Made by a program: the position numbers and the translations under genes. The notes under the pieces were generated by a model. It did no database searches, was not told the origin of the DNA, and worked only from the letters and a program-made list of their open reading frames with translations. Shown one piece after another: positions 16,609 through 62,760 of a stretch of 64,000 bases of DNA. This DNA comes from Escherichia phage vB_Eco_TB37. The stretch is taken from the sequence record OZ035850. The stretch is one strand, 5' to 3'. Position 1 is the first letter of the stretch; every line of letters begins with the position of its first letter.

Positions 16609-16629
16609 TTTGTGTTCCTCATGTTATGT

Positions 16630-16672
16630 CAGTAAGACTACTATAACACAACACGAGGGACTTGTAAACTAC
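16630..16672 (-). promoter_or_regulatory. Early promoter upstream of the alt.-3-position ORF
   Basis: Minus strand reads GTTTACA, 17-nt spacer, TTATAGT; 54 bp near-identical to the alc promoter region. Confidence 0.6.
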
Positions 16673-31955: not shown

Positions 31956-31974
31956 AAAGTCCTCATGTTATGTT

Positions 31975-32016
31975 AGTAAGACTACTATAACACAACACGA
32001 GGGACTTGTAAACAAC
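31975..32016 (-). promoter_or_regulatory. Early promoter for alc
   Basis: Minus strand GTTTACA, 17-nt spacer, TTATAGT; duplicate of the 16630-16672 cassette. Confidence 0.6.
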
Positions 32017-33604
<1,588 letters not shown>

Positions 33605-33633
33605 AATAAAATGGGCCTTGCGGCCCACTCCTT
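33605..33633 (-). promoter_or_regulatory. Candidate hairpin-split RBS of denA
   Basis: AAGGAG lies 23 nt before the denA ATG with a GGGCC-GCAA-GGCCC hairpin between. Confidence 0.45.
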
Positions 33634-34810
33634 AAAAGTATTTTTTAAAACTCATCATAACTTTATCATCAACATCATTATCAATCTGTGCAACAAGGTA
33701 AGATGACAGTTCTACTTCTTGTGGCGCGGATTGAACATTATCAGAATTAAGATATTCACGAATCCAAGGATATGGATGTTTAACCGGAGCATCGGTAATC
33801 GGGCATGGAAGACCACACTGTTTCATACGAGATACAGTTAAGTAATCAATAAAGCTCCACATGCTATTTGTATTTAATCCAGGAACATCGCCATCTTTAA
33901 ATAAATGAACTGCCCAATCTTTTTCTTGGCGGTTAACTTCCATGAAAATATCAACTGCTTCTTGTTCACACTCTTGAGCAATTTTAACCCATTCATCGCC
34001 ATCAGTGCCAAGTTGAAGTTGACGAATAATATATTGAGTGCCTTTAAGGTGAAGCTGCTCATCACGTGCAATGAACTTCATAATCTTGGCATTACCTTCC
34101 ATGATTTCCATGTTCTTATGGAAGTTAAAGGTACATGCGAAAGATACATAAAAACGAATAGCTTCCAATGCGTTGATTACATGCAAACAGAGGTAAAGAG
34201 ATTTCATTAGCTCATGCTTCCAATACGTCTCATGCTCAATAGCATCTTCAATAACGTCTTCGTCTGCATTAATTTCTTTTTGGTATTCGATATCAGCTTT
34301 AGCGTTTTCCCAATAACGAGTTTTAATCAGAACATCATCATAATAACGTCCAATGGATTCAGCACGTTTCATAATAGCTTCATCTAATACAATTTCATCA
34401 AATACCTTCGATGGATCAGTATAAAGATTTCGCATGATATGTGTATATGAACGGCTGTGAATAGTTTCACTAAAAGTCCACGTAGCAACCCATGTATCAA
34501 GGCTTGGGTCTGAAATTAATGACATAAGTACAGCAGACGGCGCACGACCCTGAATGCTATCCAAAAGTGATTGATACTTCAGGTTATTAGTAAAAATATT
34601 CTGCTGATACTGAGGAAGTTTATTAAATTGTGCAGCATCCATCATCAAGTTTACTTCTTCAGGACGCCAGAAAAATGATAATTGCTTTTCAGTCAAATCT
34701 TCAAAAACTTTATGGCGTTGAATATCATAACGCGCAATACCAAGACCTGAACCGAAGAACATAGGTTCTTTTAAAACATCAACTGGATTTGTATTAAAAA
34801 CTGTGCTCAT
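33632..34810 (-). CDS. nrdB: Ribonucleotide reductase small subunit, uninterrupted
   Basis: Single continuous 392-aa ORF, MSTVFNTNPVDVL… to …MMSFKKYF. Confidence 0.95.
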   Translation of the reverse strand: MSTVFNTNPVDVLKEPMFFGSGLGIARYDIQRHKVFEDLTEKQLSFFWRPEEVNLMMDAAQFNKLPQYQQNIFTNNLKYQSLLDSIQGRAPSAVLMSLISDPSLDTWVATWTFSETIHSRSYTHIMRNLYTDPSKVFDEIVLDEAIMKRAESIGRYYDDVLIKTRYWENAKADIEYQKEINADEDVIEDAIEHETYWKHELMKSLYLCLHVINALEAIRFYVSFACTFNFHKNMEIMEGNAKIMKFIARDEQLHLKGTQYIIRQLQLGTDGDEWVKIAQECEQEAVDIFMEVNRQEKDWAVHLFKDGDVPGLNTNSMWSFIDYLTVSRMKQCGLPCPITDAPVKHPYPWIREYLNSDNVQSAPQEVELSSYLVAQIDNDVDDKVMMSFKKYF

Positions 34811-34861
34811 AAATTTTCCGCTTAGTTAATAGTTGGTGACTCGTCCGTGAGTCAAATTATA

Positions 34862-37126
34862 TCATAATTTACAGGATGAACAATCTTCAGCTTTTGGAGT
34901 TTCTATTTCATAATCATCAGTACCAGAACCATCGCGGGTATTATGATAATAGAAATTTTTTCCGCCAAAATACCAAAAATACAAAAGGTCATCAATCATT
35001 ATTGACATTGGAACCTTGCCTTTAGGGAAGATTTGGGGGTCATAGTATGTATTCGCCGAAGCTGATTGACAAACCCATTTCAGCATAATAGCTACCTGCG
35101 TAAGATAAGGTTTATTACCTTTCTTAGCTAATTTCCATGTATAGTCGTAAAGGTCTATGTTATGCTCAATATTGGGCACGACTTGATTAAAGGAGCCCTC
35201 TTTTGATTCTTTAACAGAGACTGGTCCACGTGGAGGCTCGATACCGTTTGTACTGTTAGAAACTTGGGAAGATGACTCACATGGCATAAGTGCTGATAAT
35301 GTGCTATTACGGATGCCAAAGAGCTTAAGGTCTTCCCGCAGCGACGACCAGTCACAAACGTATTTTGGAGCTGCGATTTGGTCAATCTTTTTATTGTACC
35401 AGTCGATAGGTAATTCGCCTCGAGACCAACGAGTGTCTGAATAATATTCGCAAGGTCCTTTTTCTTTGGCGAGCTTAATGGATGCTTTAATGAGTCCATA
35501 CTGTAATCTCTCAAATAGTTCATGTGTTAAATCGTTAGCATCTTCATAAGAAGCAAAGTTACTTGCCAGCCAAGCTGCATAGTTAGTAACACCTACACCA
35601 AGGTTTCGACGCTTTTTAGCTTTTTCTGCTTCAGGAACTGGATATCCTTGGTAATCCAAAAGATTATCAAGAGCACGAACTTGAACTTCTGCCAATTCAT
35701 TAATTTTATCTTGGTCTTGCCAATCAAAGTTATCCAGCACAAATGCAGATAATGTACACAATCCAATTTCAGCATCAGGACTATTCACATCATTTGTTGG
35801 AATAGCAATTTCACAGCACAAGTTGCTCTGACGAATAGGTGCCTTTTCACGAATAAATGGCGTATAGTTATTCGTATTATCAATGAACTGCACATAAATC
35901 CTTGCTGTTCCTGAGCGTTCAGTCATGAGCAATTCAAATAGTTCACGGGCTTTAATGCGCTTTTTACGAATATTAGGGTCTTTTTCTGCTGCTTCGTATA
36001 ATTCACGGAAACGGTCTTGGTCTTTAAAATAAGAATAATAAAGCTCGCCACCCATTTCATGCGGACTGAACAAAGTAATGTAATCATTCTTTCCAAAACG
36101 TTCCATCATTAGATCATTCAGTTGAACACCATAATCCATATGACGGATACGGTTTTCTTCTACACCTTTGTTATTTTTCAAAACGAGAAGATTTTCAACT
36201 TCCAAATGCCAAATAGGATAATAAGCAGTAGCAGCGCCGCCACGAATTCCACCCTGTGAGCATGATTTAACAGCAGTCTGAAAATGTTTCCAAAAAGGAA
36301 TAACACCAGTATGGCGTACTTCACCCATGCCAATCTTAGAACCTTCGGCACGAATCATACCAACGTTAATACCAATTCCAGCGCGTTTGGAGATATATTC
36401 AACAATTGAAGCAGAAGCCTTATTGATAGACTTTAATGAATCACCTGCCTCAATAACAACGCATGAACTAAACTGCCGAGTTGGAGTACGGCAACCAGCC
36501 ATAATAGGAGTTGGTAATGAAATCTGTCGAGTAGATACTGCTTCATAAAAACGAATAACGTGTTTTAATCTATCAACAGGTTCATCTTGATGCAATGCCA
36601 TTCCAATAGTCATAAATGCAAACTGTGGAGTTTCATAAATTTGACCAGTGGTTTTATCTTTAACTAGATATTTTTCTTTTAATTGCATCGCCCCGGAATA
36701 AGTAAATTCCATATCCCGCTCATGCTTAATTTTTGATTCTAAAAATGTAATTTCTTCGGCAGAATATTTTGACAACAGTTCAGGGTCATATTTACCTTCA
36801 TTTACACAGTAAGAAATATGGTCAATAAATGAACGTGGTTCATACTGCCCGTAAACATGCTTACGAAGAGCGAACATTAAACAGCGTGCAGCTACATATT
36901 GGTAATCAGGCTCTTCAACTGAAATAGAATTCGCAGCAGCCTTAATTACAATGGTTTGAATGTCATCAGTGGTCATTCCATCACGGAGATATGATTTAAT
37001 ATTTTCATATAATTCATAAGGATCTACAGATGTTCCTTCAGCTGCCCAAGATAAAACTTTAATAATTTTTTGTGGGTCAAAGCTCTGAGAAACACCACTA
37101 CTTTTGATAACATTAATTAATTGCAT
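34862..37126 (-). CDS. nrdA: Ribonucleotide reductase large subunit
   Basis: 754 aa; active-site SNLCCEI; N-terminus [20 protein letters not shown]. Confidence 0.97.
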   Translation of the reverse strand: MQLINVIKSSGVSQSFDPQKIIKVLSWAAEGTSVDPYELYENIKSYLRDGMTTDDIQTIVIKAAANSISVEEPDYQYVAARCLMFALRKHVYGQYEPRSFIDHISYCVNEGKYDPELLSKYSAEEITFLESKIKHERDMEFTYSGAMQLKEKYLVKDKTTGQIYETPQFAFMTIGMALHQDEPVDRLKHVIRFYEAVSTRQISLPTPIMAGCRTPTRQFSSCVVIEAGDSLKSINKASASIVEYISKRAGIGINVGMIRAEGSKIGMGEVRHTGVIPFWKHFQTAVKSCSQGGIRGGAATAYYPIWHLEVENLLVLKNNKGVEENRIRHMDYGVQLNDLMMERFGKNDYITLFSPHEMGGELYYSYFKDQDRFRELYEAAEKDPNIRKKRIKARELFELLMTERSGTARIYVQFIDNTNNYTPFIREKAPIRQSNLCCEIAIPTNDVNSPDAEIGLCTLSAFVLDNFDWQDQDKINELAEVQVRALDNLLDYQGYPVPEAEKAKKRRNLGVGVTNYAAWLASNFASYEDANDLTHELFERLQYGLIKASIKLAKEKGPCEYYSDTRWSRGELPIDWYNKKIDQIAAPKYVCDWSSLREDLKLFGIRNSTLSALMPCESSSQVSNSTNGIEPPRGPVSVKESKEGSFNQVVPNIEHNIDLYDYTWKLAKKGNKPYLTQVAIMLKWVCQSASANTYYDPQIFPKGKVPMSIMIDDLLYFWYFGGKNFYYHNTRDGSGTDDYEIETPKAEDCSSCKL

Positions 37127-37241
37127 AAGTCCTCAACTTGAAAATCGTCTTTAAACAATCGGTCTGAGAAACACCACTACTTTTGATAACATTAATTAAT
37201 TGCATAAGTCCTCAACTTGAAAATCGTCTTTAAACAATCGG
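37084..37241. repeat. Perfect 79-bp tandem direct duplication across the nrdA start
   Basis: 37084-37162 and 37163-37241 are identical base for base (boundaries ambiguous by 1 bp). Confidence 0.95.
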
Positions 37242-37522
37242 TTAACTATATGAGCTATTATATCACCATGACACGGCTTTGGTTTACATGTGCATCCTAG
37301 CCTCATTCCACGTAAAGGCTCTAAATGTGCTTTAGTTATTTCTCCGGATTTAATTCGACGTATAAAATCTTTTTTGAATAATTCAATGGCAGCCTCCCGG
37401 CTGCCAGCATCTTTACCGACGTAATTTCCCCAAAATGTACCGCGGTGAATATTAACATCAAAGTCGGATTTGTATTTATTCACTACCCGGCATAGACGGC
37501 CCACGCTGGAATAATTCGTCAT
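37196..37522 (-). CDS. Hypothetical protein (nrdA.1 position)
   Basis: 108-aa ORF ending …[10 protein letters not shown] inside the upstream copy of the 79-bp tandem repeat. Confidence 0.6.
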
Positions 37523-37739
37523 ATTGTTTTTCCGTTAATACAGTAATATCATAGTAACAATCGGAAGAAGTTTTAACTGTGGAAATTTTATTATCAAAAT
37601 ACTCACGAGTCATTTTATGAGTATAGTATTTTTTACCATAAATGGTAATAGGCTGTTCTGGTCCTGGAACTTCTAACTCGCTTGGGTTAGGAAGTGTAAA
37701 AAGAACAACGCCAGAAGTATCTTTAAATCGTAAAATCAT
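37476..37739 (-). CDS. Hypothetical protein (nrdA.2 position)
   Basis: 87-aa ORF; 3' end overlaps the next ORF by 47 nt. Confidence 0.5.
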
Positions 37740-38596
37740 ATTGCCATTTTCCCTTTAATTGCTGGATGCGATTCATAATTTTCAAGGATAAAATCTTTCG
37801 GTTTCATGTATTCAGTTAACCAGTAAAGCTGTGTTTCGGTGTCACAATTTCCAAACTCTATAGGCCAATCAATTTTAAGTTCACACAGTTCTTTAGGCTC
37901 ACGACGTAAAATTTCTTTACATTGCGCAGTATGATTCATATAGATGTGAGTATTACCACCAGAAAATATCAAATCTCCTGGGATAAGATTACACATCTTA
38001 GCCACAATATGCGTCAAGGCAGCGTACGAGGCAATGTTGAATGGCAAGCCCAAGAAAACATCTACACTTCTTTGGTACCATTGTAAATCAAGATAACCAT
38101 TACGCACATTAAACTGATAGAACATATGACAGGGCGGTAATGCCATTTGATTGATTTCAGCTGGATTCCATGCTGAAACGATTTGACGTCGATCAGTTGG
38201 TAATTTTTTAATACGATCAATAGTTTCAACTAATTGATCCACACCACCGAAATCACGCCATTGTTTACCGTATATAGGACCAAGTTCACCACTATGATAT
38301 CCTAGGTCTTTAGCCTGGTTTTCATAGTTATCGTCCCAAATAGTTTTACCTTGAATAAGACTGCCATGAGTGCGAAGACGTAAATCATTAACATTGGTAG
38401 AACCGGAAATAAACCATAGAAGCTCAGCAATGCATGCATTCCAGGCGAGCTTTTTAGTTGTTATTGCAGGAAAACCTTTTGTTAAATCCCAACGCAATTT
38501 AGTACCGAACAAAGCAATTGTTCCTGTGCCTGTTCGGTCATCGGTTTCATAGCCATTTTCAAAAATGTCTTTAATTAAATCTTGGTATTGTTTCAT
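37736..38596 (-). CDS. td: Thymidylate synthase, uninterrupted
   Basis: Single continuous 286-aa ORF; active-site PPCHMFYQF; [25 protein letters not shown]. Confidence 0.97.
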
Positions 38597-39008: not shown

Positions 39009-39835
<827 letters not shown>

Positions 39836-41077: not shown

Positions 41078-41120
41078 AGTATTGCCGATAGTTGTATAGT
41101 ACCATGGAAGGACAAGGATG
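41078..41120 (-). promoter_or_regulatory. Early promoter downstream of the gene 32 terminator
   Basis: Minus strand GTTTACA, spacer, GGTACTATACAAC; conserved block shared with three other promoters. Confidence 0.55.
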
Positions 41121-41127
41121 TAAACCA

Positions 41128-41166
41128 TTTTGTGAAAAAAATTTTTGAAATAAAAAAGGGGACCCT
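41128..41166 (-). terminator. Rho-independent terminator after gene 32
   Basis: GGGGACC-CUAGA-GGUCCCC hairpin followed on the minus strand by UUUUUUAUUU. Confidence 0.75.
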
Positions 41167-58331: not shown

Positions 58332-58372
58332 GATAGTTGTATAGTACCACAGTATGCTTTGGTTGTAAACCG
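58332..58372 (-). promoter_or_regulatory. Early promoter for motA
   Basis: Minus strand GTTTACA, spacer, GGTACTATACAACTATCAAC; follows an A-rich UP-like tract. Confidence 0.6.
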
Positions 58373-58380
58373 TTTTGTGA

Positions 58381-58423
58381 AAAAATTTTTAAAATAAAAA
58401 AGGGAGAGCCTCGGCTCTCCCTA
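58381..58423 (-). terminator. Rho-independent terminator upstream of the motA promoter
   Basis: GGGAGAGCC/GGCUCUCCC hairpin followed on the minus strand by a long U-rich tract. Confidence 0.7.
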
Positions 58424-61619: not shown

Positions 61620-61639
61620 TTTCTGTTCCTCCGTAGTTG

Positions 61640-61680
61640 ATAGTTGTATAGTACCACAGAGGAACAGTCTTGTAAACAAC
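61640..61680 (-). promoter_or_regulatory. Early promoter
   Basis: Minus strand GTTTACA, spacer, GGTACTATACAACTATCAAC. Confidence 0.55.
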
Positions 61681-61862
61681 TTTTTTAAAAATATTCGTAA
61701 TAAATGTGAATACCAATCACTACTGCCGAAACTTGTGCAACCAACCATGCACACGCAATAAGTACAGAATTCAAAATTTTCATAATAACCTCATCACAAA
61801 AGTAAATGTTAAACAAATTACTGGAATACTAATTAACCAAACAAAACACCACCATAATGAAC

Positions 61863-62126: not shown

Positions 62127-62145
62127 TTTTACTCCTCCGTAGCTG

Positions 62146-62186
62146 ATAGTTGTATAGTACCACGGTCCTTGTGGTATGTAAACCAT
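62146..62186 (-). promoter_or_regulatory. Early promoter
   Basis: Minus strand GTTTACA, spacer, GGTACTATACAACTATCAGC. Confidence 0.55.
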
Positions 62187-62202
62187 TTTGTGAAATTTTT
62201 TT

Positions 62203-62760
62203 TTAAATGGAAAGATACCATCCGTTGTAGTTGCTTTTTCTTACAACCTTACGAAGGTCTTCTCTGTCACCGATGAACTTCGGAGTGTACTGGATGACAC
62301 CTGGATGAATTTCTTTAGTGTTGAATATAATTATACAGTCAGCGACTTGATGATTTAGAATGGGCCCTAAATTTATTCCAGAACCATATGGATACTCTCC
62401 GCTGCATCCCGTTGTTACCGAAATCCAACGCGAGTCAGTTTGGTGTGTCTTAACTTCTACACGAAGCCCGCAATATTTTGGATGCGCTAAAACATCCCAT
62501 GCATACGTGTACGGATCATCGACATTTTCTTGGCCTTTATTGACATATCCGCTTAGCCAATCTGCCACAAAAAACTCTGCGTACACAGCGATACGGCATC
62601 TTTCGATAACTTCTGCTTTATCCTGGTTCGGGTTTTGTTTTAAAGAGTATCTTGCTGTATCAGCAATTTTGACCTTCATTTCACTAGTCAAGTCACTGTT
62701 CGATAGGGTAAATGTCGGAATCTGAAATAGTCTCTGTAAACCCGGATTCGTTTTCTGCAT
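62203..62760 (-). CDS. denB: Endonuclease IV
   Basis: 185 aa, position and length as T4 DenB. Confidence 0.88.
   Translation of the reverse strand: MQKTNPGLQRLFQIPTFTLSNSDLTSEMKVKIADTARYSLKQNPNQDKAEVIERCRIAVYAEFFVADWLSGYVNKGQENVDDPYTYAWDVLAHPKYCGLRVEVKTHQTDSRWISVTTGCSGEYPYGSGINLGPILNHQVADCIIIFNTKEIHPGVIQYTPKFIGDREDLRKVVRKSNYNGWYLSI

What the first reader, a model, noticed from the sequence alone, without database searches (positions are those of the whole stretch)
37084..37241. Perfect 79-bp tandem duplication spanning the nrdA translation start creates a chimeric upstream ORF
The 79 bp at 37084-37162 recur without mismatch at 37163-37241. The unit holds the first 14 codons of nrdA, its start codon and about 36 nt of leader, which is also the 3' end of the nrdA.1-position ORF. 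Both flanking genes stay intact: nrdA starts in the downstream copy and nrdA.1 ends in the upstream copy. The upstream copy's ATG (37205) opens a 30-codon ORF ([14 protein letters not shown] then out-of-frame [16 protein letters not shown]) whose stop overlaps the genuine nrdA ATG, a layout that could couple or attenuate nrdA translation. Zero divergence implies a very recent event, or an assembly or construction artefact.
Basis: seen in the sequence. Interest (0 to 1): 0.7.

Follow-up and report, generated by a model that had tools for sequence, protein, structure and literature searches.

The report
Private 79-bp duplication at nrdA start
A T4-like phage sequence carries a perfect back-to-back 79-base repeat across the start of its ribonucleotide reductase gene; no other known genome has it, both neighbouring genes stay intact, and it is most likely an untrimmed assembly overlap or else a very recent, nearly harmless mutation.

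Summary
Window 37084-37162 and 37163-37241 are identical 79-bp head-to-tail copies, the only perfect tandem repeat in the 64 kb. The window is a Tequatrovirus (T4-like phage); the genes lie on the minus strand. The unit covers -36 to +43 around the nrdA start codon, so nrdA (754 aa) and nrdA.1 (108 aa, identical to T4's) both stay intact, and a 30-codon chimeric ORF forms that overlaps nrdA by 14 nt.

The junction is absent from 50,697 phage records, IMG/VR, JGI metagenomes, GTDB genomes, E. coli genomes and plasmids. Every relative examined has one copy. The source genome itself could not be traced.

Real or artefact cannot be settled without reads. I lean to artefact (about 0.55). The period of 79 equals the end overlap left by MEGAHIT at k=79 or IDBA_UD at maxk 80. 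The junction has only 1 nt of microhomology. A 79-bp perfect repeat should also be unstable in a recombination-proficient T4-like phage.

If real (about 0.4), it is an ordinary recent tandem duplication. The expected effect on nrdA is small, because the new ORF ends in nearly the same overlap geometry as the native nrdA.1/nrdA junction.

One caveat: Shigella phage Sf25 has an independent, private 178-bp perfect duplication that overlaps this one. Interest is low.

The parts
37084..37162 (-). Repeat copy 1 (downstream in coding sense). It holds the genuine nrdA ribosome-binding site, the ATG (37126-37124) and the first 14 codons.
   Evidence: 79 nt, 100% identical to copy 2. nrdA ORF 34862-37126.
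37163..37241 (-). Repeat copy 2 (upstream in coding sense). It holds the true 3' end and stop of nrdA.1, plus a second nrdA-type RBS and ATG (37205-37203).
   Evidence: The nrdA.1 ORF 37196-37522 ends in this copy.
37162..37163 (.). New junction created by the duplication (...AAACAATCGG|TCTGAGAAAC... on the + strand). It has only 1 nt of microhomology.
   Evidence: flank comparison; array length 2 x 79 + 1. The junction 40-mer/35-mer is absent from all collections.
37113..37205 (-). Chimeric 30-codon ORF: 14 NrdA codons, then a +1 frame read through copy 1. Its stop lies 9-11 nt past the nrdA ATG, giving a 14-nt overlap with nrdA.
   Evidence: No Pfam hit. Not on record as a gene product anywhere.
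34862..37126 (-). nrdA, class Ia ribonucleotide reductase large subunit, intact (754 aa).
   Evidence: The exact protein is found in 221 collection blocks, with ATP-cone, Ribonuc_red_lgN and Ribonuc_red_lgC domains.
37196..37522 (-). nrdA.1 (DUF4326, 108 aa), intact and identical to T4 NrdA.1.
   Evidence: (exact match to HM137666, T4T, and many others). (PF14216, E = 5.5e-22).
37131..37134 (-). Genuine nrdA Shine-Dalgarno (GAGG, -8 to -5). A duplicate lies at 37210-37213.
   Evidence: RBS annotated in T4 record J03968; sequence identical to T4.
37359..37386 (-). Homologue of the T4-annotated nrdA promoter (-10 at 37359-37364, -35 at 37381-37386). It lies outside the duplicated unit, so the leader would be 79 nt longer if the duplication is real.

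Best explanation
The second copy is most likely not present in the phage. It is probably an untrimmed end overlap from a de Bruijn-graph assembly. T4-like genomes are circularly permuted and assemble as a circle, so the linear contig begins and ends with the same k bases. The same overlap arises when two contigs that share a k-mer end are joined. If such a sequence is rotated or concatenated without trimming the overlap, the result is an exact, spacer-free tandem duplication of period k at an arbitrary internal position. Under this reading the true locus is the ordinary T4 arrangement, with nrdA.1 ending 10 nt inside nrdA, and the 30-codon ORF does not exist. Shown: the exact repeat, its privacy to this sequence, and the fit of its length to assembler settings. 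Inferred: that the assembly was actually made and handled in this way.
For: - The copies are 100% identical and strictly adjacent.
- The period is exactly 79. Contig-end overlaps equal maxK for MEGAHIT and metaSPAdes, and maxK-1 for IDBA_UD. MEGAHIT's standard k-list is 21,29,39,59,79,99,119,141, and IDBA_UD steps by 20, so maxk 80 gives 79 (PMC10914622).
- Such overlaps in short-read phage assemblies are described as artefacts that must be removed before reordering (bioRxiv 10.64898/2026.07.08.737226).
- The junction shows only 1 nt of microhomology, which is no more than chance.
- The junction is absent from every collection searched. The method was validated by a positive control.
- All relatives that still carry the unit have exactly one copy: 28 loci with one exact copy and 1 with a single mismatch. 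About 489 phage records align at single-copy length.
- It is the only such repeat in the window, as expected for one circularisation seam.
- From established knowledge (Singer et al. 1982, Cell 31:25; not checked here), T4 recombines efficiently on about 50 bp of homology. A real 79-bp perfect tandem repeat would therefore be lost quickly unless it is very new or under selection.
Against: - The source record, its reads and its assembler are unknown, so the k = 79 match is circumstantial. 79 is not the final k of the most common settings (SPAdes 77 or 127; MEGAHIT 141 for 150-nt reads).
- The unit happens to span a gene boundary, so both genes stay intact. That is somewhat more expected for a viable real mutation than for a randomly placed seam.
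- Shigella phage Sf25 carries an independent, private 178-bp perfect duplication that overlaps this one by 18 nt. No other perfect tandem duplication occurs in about 740 kb of related sequence. That co-location hints at a real local hotspot.
Confidence: 0.55

Rival explanations
1. It is a real, very recent spontaneous tandem duplication in the phage stock, made by illegitimate recombination or replication template switching and fixed by a plaque-purification bottleneck. It would be close to neutral. Both flanking genes stay intact. The extra nrdA-type RBS and ATG would drive synthesis of a 30-aa by-product peptide. Ribosomes finishing that ORF stop 9-11 nt inside nrdA and can re-initiate at the genuine ATG, much as ribosomes finishing nrdA.1 do in the wild type.
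For: - The repeat is head-to-tail and the ancestral single-copy state is seen in all relatives.
- The unit spans the gene boundary, so nrdA and nrdA.1 keep products identical to those of other phages.
- The new 14-nt stop/start overlap resembles the native 10-nt overlap.
- The promoter annotated in T4 lies outside the unit and is unchanged.
- Small tandem duplications are a classical class of T4 mutation (established knowledge).
Against: - There is no microhomology beyond 1 nt.
- The period equals an assembler k value.
- A 79-bp perfect repeat should be recombinationally unstable in T4-like phages (established knowledge).
- No independent sequence carries it.
Confidence: 0.3
2. It is a real duplication at a local hotspot. 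The nrdA.1/nrdA junction would be prone to double-strand breaks or template switching, for example through a free-standing GIY-YIG homing endonuclease that occupies the nrdA.1 slot in other Tequatroviruses. Alternatively, changes in the nrdA 5' region are selected because they alter ribonucleotide reductase expression. On this reading the 79-bp duplication here and the 178-bp one in Sf25 are recurrent outcomes.
For: - Sf25 has an independent 178-bp perfect duplication spanning -196 to -19 from the nrdA ATG. It overlaps this unit (-36 to +43), starts inside an annotated stem-loop, and includes the T4-annotated -35 and -10 of the nrdA promoter.
- No other perfect tandem duplication was found in about 740 kb of related loci.
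- In phage N2 and at least 7 other distinct Tequatrovirus genomes (9 records at >=99% identity, including one RefSeq duplicate), a GIY-YIG/NUMOD3 endonuclease gene replaces nrdA.1. Its right boundary lies 8 nt upstream of the nrdA ATG, inside the unit.
Against: - There are only two events and each is private to one record. Both could be assembly artefacts.
- With about 490 genomes, the expected number of chance co-locations is not negligible (my estimate is p of roughly 0.05-0.5, depending on the unknown per-genome rate).
- The endonuclease's cleavage site is unknown.
- Nothing shows that either duplication changes expression.
Confidence: 0.1
3. It is a construction scar from deliberate genetic engineering of the phage, for example a recombination template whose homology arm was integrated in duplicate.
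For: Exact tandem duplications at gene starts can arise from single-crossover integration.
Against: - No foreign sequence, tag, restriction-site or marker lies at or near the junction.
- The flanks are collinear with natural relatives.
- 79 bp is an odd length for a designed arm.
Confidence: 0.02

Closest known systems
Untrimmed k-mer end overlap of circular or joined de Bruijn-graph contigs (MEGAHIT and metaSPAdes: maxK; IDBA_UD: maxK-1)
   Same: An exact, spacer-free direct repeat whose length is a standard k value (79). It occurs once, at an arbitrary place, and is absent from all relatives.
   Different: Such overlaps normally sit at the two ends of a contig. Here the copies are adjacent and internal, which needs an extra step (rotation or concatenation) that I cannot document. 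The assembler is unknown.
Spontaneous tandem duplications in phage T4 (classical rII-region and small frameshift-type duplications; established knowledge, not checked in papers here)
   Same: A head-to-tail duplication of a short segment. It is expected to be unstable through homologous recombination between the copies.
   Different: Those were proven genetically or by sequencing of defined mutants, and many show short direct repeats at their end points. Here there is only 1 nt, and no physical evidence exists.
178-bp perfect tandem duplication in Shigella phage Sf25 (MF327009, 66916-67272)
   Same: Same locus, and the units overlap by 18 nt. It is also 100% identical, also has a 1-nt end extension, and is also private to one record.
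   Different: - The length and end points differ.
- It lies wholly inside nrdA.1 and replaces its last 8 residues.
- It duplicates the annotated nrdA promoter rather than the translation start.
Native nrdA.1/nrdA stop-start overlap (translational coupling layout common in T4 gene clusters)
   Same: The chimeric ORF ends 14 nt inside nrdA, close to the native 10-nt overlap. If the ORF is real, nrdA would probably still be translated by direct initiation plus re-initiation.
   Different: The upstream ORF would be a 30-aa fusion with no homologue and no conservation. Coupling itself was not measured.

Membership tests
Assembler end-overlap artefact | Two copies exactly identical and directly adjacent | tested here: met
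   79/79 identical, spacing 79.
Assembler end-overlap artefact | Repeat length equals the assembler's final k (or k-1) | tested here: inconclusive
   79 is in MEGAHIT's standard k-list and equals IDBA_UD maxk 80 minus 1. The assembler and settings of the source are unknown.
Assembler end-overlap artefact | No reads support the two-copy junction | not testable with these tools
   No read data are available and the source record could not be traced.
Assembler end-overlap artefact | Absent from all related genomes; single occurrence | tested here: met
   Junction absent in six collections. One copy in all 29 loci that retain the unit. It is the only perfect tandem repeat in the window.
Spontaneous tandem duplication (illegitimate recombination or slippage) | Head-to-tail direct repeat of a segment that is single-copy in relatives | tested here: met
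Spontaneous tandem duplication (illegitimate recombination or slippage) | Short homology at the end points (frequent but not obligatory) | tested here: not met
   only 1 nt (A) is shared, as expected by chance.
Spontaneous tandem duplication (illegitimate recombination or slippage) | Physical presence in phage DNA | not testable with these tools
   Needs reads, PCR or long reads.
Regulatory upstream ORF / leader-peptide control of nrdA | Upstream ORF with its own RBS and start, ending at or in the downstream start region | tested here: met
   same GAGG-N4-ATG as nrdA; the stop lies 9-11 nt past the nrdA ATG.
Regulatory upstream ORF / leader-peptide control of nrdA | Conservation of the arrangement in related genomes | tested here: not met
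   No relative has it. The peptide is not on record. No Rfam element lies there.
Regulatory upstream ORF / leader-peptide control of nrdA | Measurable effect on downstream expression | not testable with these tools
   Only an in-silico fold was possible. The predicted unpaired probability of the genuine SD falls from 0.26 to 0.06 with two copies, which is weak evidence.
Tequatrovirus td-nrdA.2-nrdA.1-nrdA-nrdB gene block | Gene order and protein families as in T4 | tested here: met
   This window lacks both the td intron and the mobE-type insert between nrdA and nrdB.

The most novel reading that the evidence does not exclude
The duplication is real and is one of at least two independent tandem duplications (79 bp here, 178 bp in Sf25) at the 5' control region of nrdA in Tequatroviruses. 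That would mark a local rearrangement hotspot. It might be linked to double-strand breaks from the free-standing GIY-YIG homing endonuclease that replaces nrdA.1 in other members. Alternatively it might reflect selection to retune ribonucleotide reductase expression: an extra promoter in Sf25, and an extra translation start with a coupled leader ORF here.
Probability: 0.1. Interest if true: 0.45.

Novelty: not a real feature. Interest (0 to 1): 0.12.

Why it matters
As it stands it matters mainly for quality control. A deposited or assembled T4-like genome probably carries a 79-bp seam that creates a spurious ORF and shifts coordinates, and it should be checked against reads.

If the duplication is physically real, it is a textbook-type recent tandem duplication with little expected phenotype. 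It would then be modestly useful as a natural one-versus-two-copy test of translational coupling at the nrdA start. Together with Sf25, it would also be a hint of a rearrangement hotspot next to a homing-endonuclease insertion site.

Tried and rejected
Tracing the source genome failed:
- The junction was not found in phages, IMG/VR, JGI metagenomes, GTDB genomes, E. coli genomes or plasmids.
- A 120-mer carrying three private SNPs was absent from the three contig collections.
- This window's exact td protein is not on record.
- The exact frd protein occurs only in OZ035789, a different phage that has a td intron.

Two search attempts were uninformative:
- The first junction search, with a 70-mer, failed because the tool stitched the two 35-nt halves together in single-copy genomes. 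I replaced it with a 40-mer that cannot seed a 28-mer in single-copy DNA. The Sf25 junction served as a positive control.
- The 'places versus records' count as a way to list all duplications at this locus did not flag even Sf25.

Ideas considered and rejected:
- A known RNA element or riboswitch: no Rfam match at E <= 1.
- A promoter or terminator created by the junction: none found, and counts were at background.
- A duplicated promoter in this window: rejected, because the T4-annotated -35 and -10 lie 118-145 nt upstream of the unit.
- A contig break caused by a mixture with the endonuclease allele: the N2-type divergence point (-8) does not match the unit borders (-36/+43), so it does not explain the seam position.

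Literature searches on nrdA.1, T4 tandem duplications and Sf25 returned nothing specific.

Full report
**1. Observation**

The 79 bases at window 37084-37162 recur exactly at 37163-37241. Tandem Repeats Finder gives period 79, 2.0 copies, 100% matches and no indels over 37084-37242. The repeat finder and a direct string comparison agree. It is the only tandem repeat, and the only perfect repeat, in the 64-kb window.

The genes lie on the minus strand:
- nrdB, 33632-34810
- nrdA, 34862-37126 (754 aa)
- nrdA.1, 37196-37522 (108 aa)
- nrdA.2, 37476-37739
- an intron-less td, 37736-38596
- frd, 39009-39590

In coding sense the unit runs from -36 to +43 relative to the nrdA ATG. It holds the last codons and stop of nrdA.1, the GAGG ribosome-binding site, the ATG and 14 codons. 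As a result:
- nrdA.1 ends normally in the upstream copy.
- nrdA starts normally in the downstream copy.
- The upstream ATG (37205) opens a 30-codon ORF ([14 protein letters not shown] + [16 protein letters not shown]).

The stop of that ORF (37115-37113) lies 9-11 nt past the nrdA ATG, giving a 14-nt overlap, and does not sit on the ATG.

**2. What the region is**

The window is a Tequatrovirus (T4-like) genome, about 97-98% identical over 24 kb to phages such as JK38, ESh33 and PhiZZ6. No record reaches 99% or more.
- The NrdA protein is identical to proteins in 221 blocks of the public collection.
- NrdA.1 (DUF4326) is identical to that of T4.
- With one copy removed, the -230 to +50 region around the nrdA ATG is 100% identical to T4 and to Sf25.
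- T4 record J03968 annotates the nrdA RBS at -8 to -5 and a promoter with -35 at -181 to -176 and -10 at -159 to -154.
- In this window the promoter corresponds to 37381-37386 and 37359-37364, which is outside the duplicated unit.

If the duplication is real, it lengthens the leader by 79 nt and adds a second translation start, but it does not duplicate the promoter.

**3. Is it found elsewhere?**

No.
- A 40-mer centred on the new junction cannot seed a match in single-copy DNA. It finds nothing in 50,697 phage records, 20,395 E. coli records or 72,556 plasmids.
- A 35-mer finds nothing in IMG/VR, JGI metagenome contigs or GTDB genome contigs.
- The method works: the equivalent 40-mer from Sf25's duplication finds Sf25 and only Sf25.
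- Of the 55 loci fetched, 28 have exactly one exact copy of the unit and JK38 has one copy with one mismatch. None has two. The rest are too diverged to carry it, or have nrdA.1 replaced.
- About 489 phage records align over the locus. All listed rows have single-copy length, except Sf25 and the endonuclease-replacement allele of phage N2.
- The 30-aa product is not on record among 153 billion gene positions.
- The source genome itself could not be traced. Absence therefore means only that nobody else has deposited this junction.

**4. Real or artefact?**

These tools cannot settle this, because no reads are available.

*For an artefact:*
- The two copies are exact and abutting.
- The period is exactly 79. 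De Bruijn assemblers leave end overlaps of maxK (MEGAHIT, metaSPAdes) or maxK-1 (IDBA_UD). 79 is a member of MEGAHIT's standard k-list, and it equals IDBA_UD maxk 80 minus 1 (PMC10914622).
- Such overlaps are recognised artefacts in short-read phage assemblies and must be removed before reordering (bioRxiv 10.64898/2026.07.08.737226).
- A circularly permuted T4-like genome assembles as a circle. Rotating it, or concatenating contigs, without trimming turns the overlap into exactly this kind of internal tandem repeat.
- The junction has only 1 nt of microhomology.
- From established knowledge, T4 recombines efficiently on about 50 bp of homology. A real 79-bp perfect repeat would be short-lived.

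*Against an artefact:*
- 79 is not the commonest final k.
- The assembler is unknown.
- The unit neatly spares both genes.
- Shigella phage Sf25 has an independent perfect 178-bp duplication at -196 to -19, overlapping this unit by 18 nt. An exhaustive scan of about 740 kb of other T4-like loci found no other perfect tandem duplication.

With about 490 genomes and an unknown per-genome rate, I estimate that this co-location has a chance probability of roughly 0.05-0.5. That is suggestive but not significant.

My weights are:
- artefact, about 0.55
- real and near-neutral, about 0.30
- real and part of a hotspot or selected change, about 0.10
- engineering scar, about 0.02

**5. How it would work if real**

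This section is inference.
- Transcripts from the unchanged promoter would carry two identical initiation regions.
- Ribosomes starting at the first would make a 30-aa peptide, run through the genuine RBS and ATG, and stop 9-11 nt inside nrdA.
- This geometry is very close to the native one, in which nrdA.1 ends 10 nt inside nrdA.
- nrdA would therefore still be translated by direct initiation and by re-initiation.
- Folding predicts a somewhat more base-paired genuine Shine-Dalgarno in the two-copy leader (unpaired probability 0.26 versus 0.06). Translating ribosomes on the new ORF would open that structure.
- No Rfam family, promoter or terminator is created.
- The expected net effect is small.

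**6. Context noticed**
- The nrdA.1 slot is a mobile-element site. In phage N2 and at least seven other distinct Tequatrovirus genomes (nine records at 99% identity or more, one of them a RefSeq duplicate), a 243-aa GIY-YIG/NUMOD3/I-TevI-type endonuclease gene on the opposite strand replaces nrdA.1.
- Homology to this window stops 8 nt upstream of the nrdA ATG. Copies about 90% identical lie next to td in Klebsiella T4-like phages.
- Relatives also vary in a td intron with I-TevI, an nrdB intron with an HNH gene, and a mobE-type insert between nrdA and nrdB. All three are absent here.
- This makes a break-induced origin conceivable, but nothing links the endonuclease to either duplication.

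**7. Verdict**

The feature is a private, zero-divergence 79-bp tandem duplication. It is most probably an assembly seam and otherwise an ordinary recent mutation. It is not a conserved regulatory device. Interest is low (0.12). The one reading worth a follow-up is a recurrent rearrangement hotspot at the nrdA 5' region (probability about 0.1).

Noticed in passing
L001 1046-1402 (Shigella phage Sf25, MF327009.1 66916-67272): An independent perfect 178-bp tandem duplication inside nrdA.1, at -196 to -19 from the nrdA ATG. It overlaps the window's unit by 18 nt. It starts inside T4's annotated stem-loop, includes the annotated nrdA -35 and -10, and replaces the last 8 residues of NrdA.1. It is private to Sf25.
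   Followed up: partly
L055 1683-2414 (Escherichia phage N2, ON645936.1 143353-144084); corresponds to window 37214-37513: A free-standing GIY-YIG/NUMOD3/I-TevI-DNA-binding endonuclease gene (243 aa, opposite strand) replaces the whole of nrdA.1 in N2 and at least 7 other distinct Tequatrovirus genomes. Copies about 90% identical lie next to td in Klebsiella T4-like phages. Its cleavage target is unknown.
   Followed up: partly
window 33632-38596: This phage lacks three mobile elements that vary among its relatives: the td intron with I-TevI, the nrdB intron with an HNH gene, and the mobE-type gene between nrdA and nrdB (only 51 nt separate them here).
   Followed up: no
L003 2730-3000 (ENA ERZ28580252 scaffold_64): nrdA.1 is frameshifted in its 5' half in this otherwise closely related 166-kb contig. 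The reading frame upstream of residue ~40 is lost and no gene was called.
   Followed up: no
window 41087-41166, 58332-58411, 61639-61718, 62145-62224: Four copies of an ~80-nt intergenic repeat (GATAGTTGTATAGTACC...TGTAAAC...). Read on the minus strand, this looks like T4 early-promoter sequence (GTTTACA ... TATAC). This was not tested.
   Followed up: no
window 16616-16672 and 31960-32016: A 57-nt direct repeat at 96% identity, 15.3 kb apart (TCCTCATGTTATG...GGGACTTGTAAAC). Its nature was not examined.
   Followed up: no
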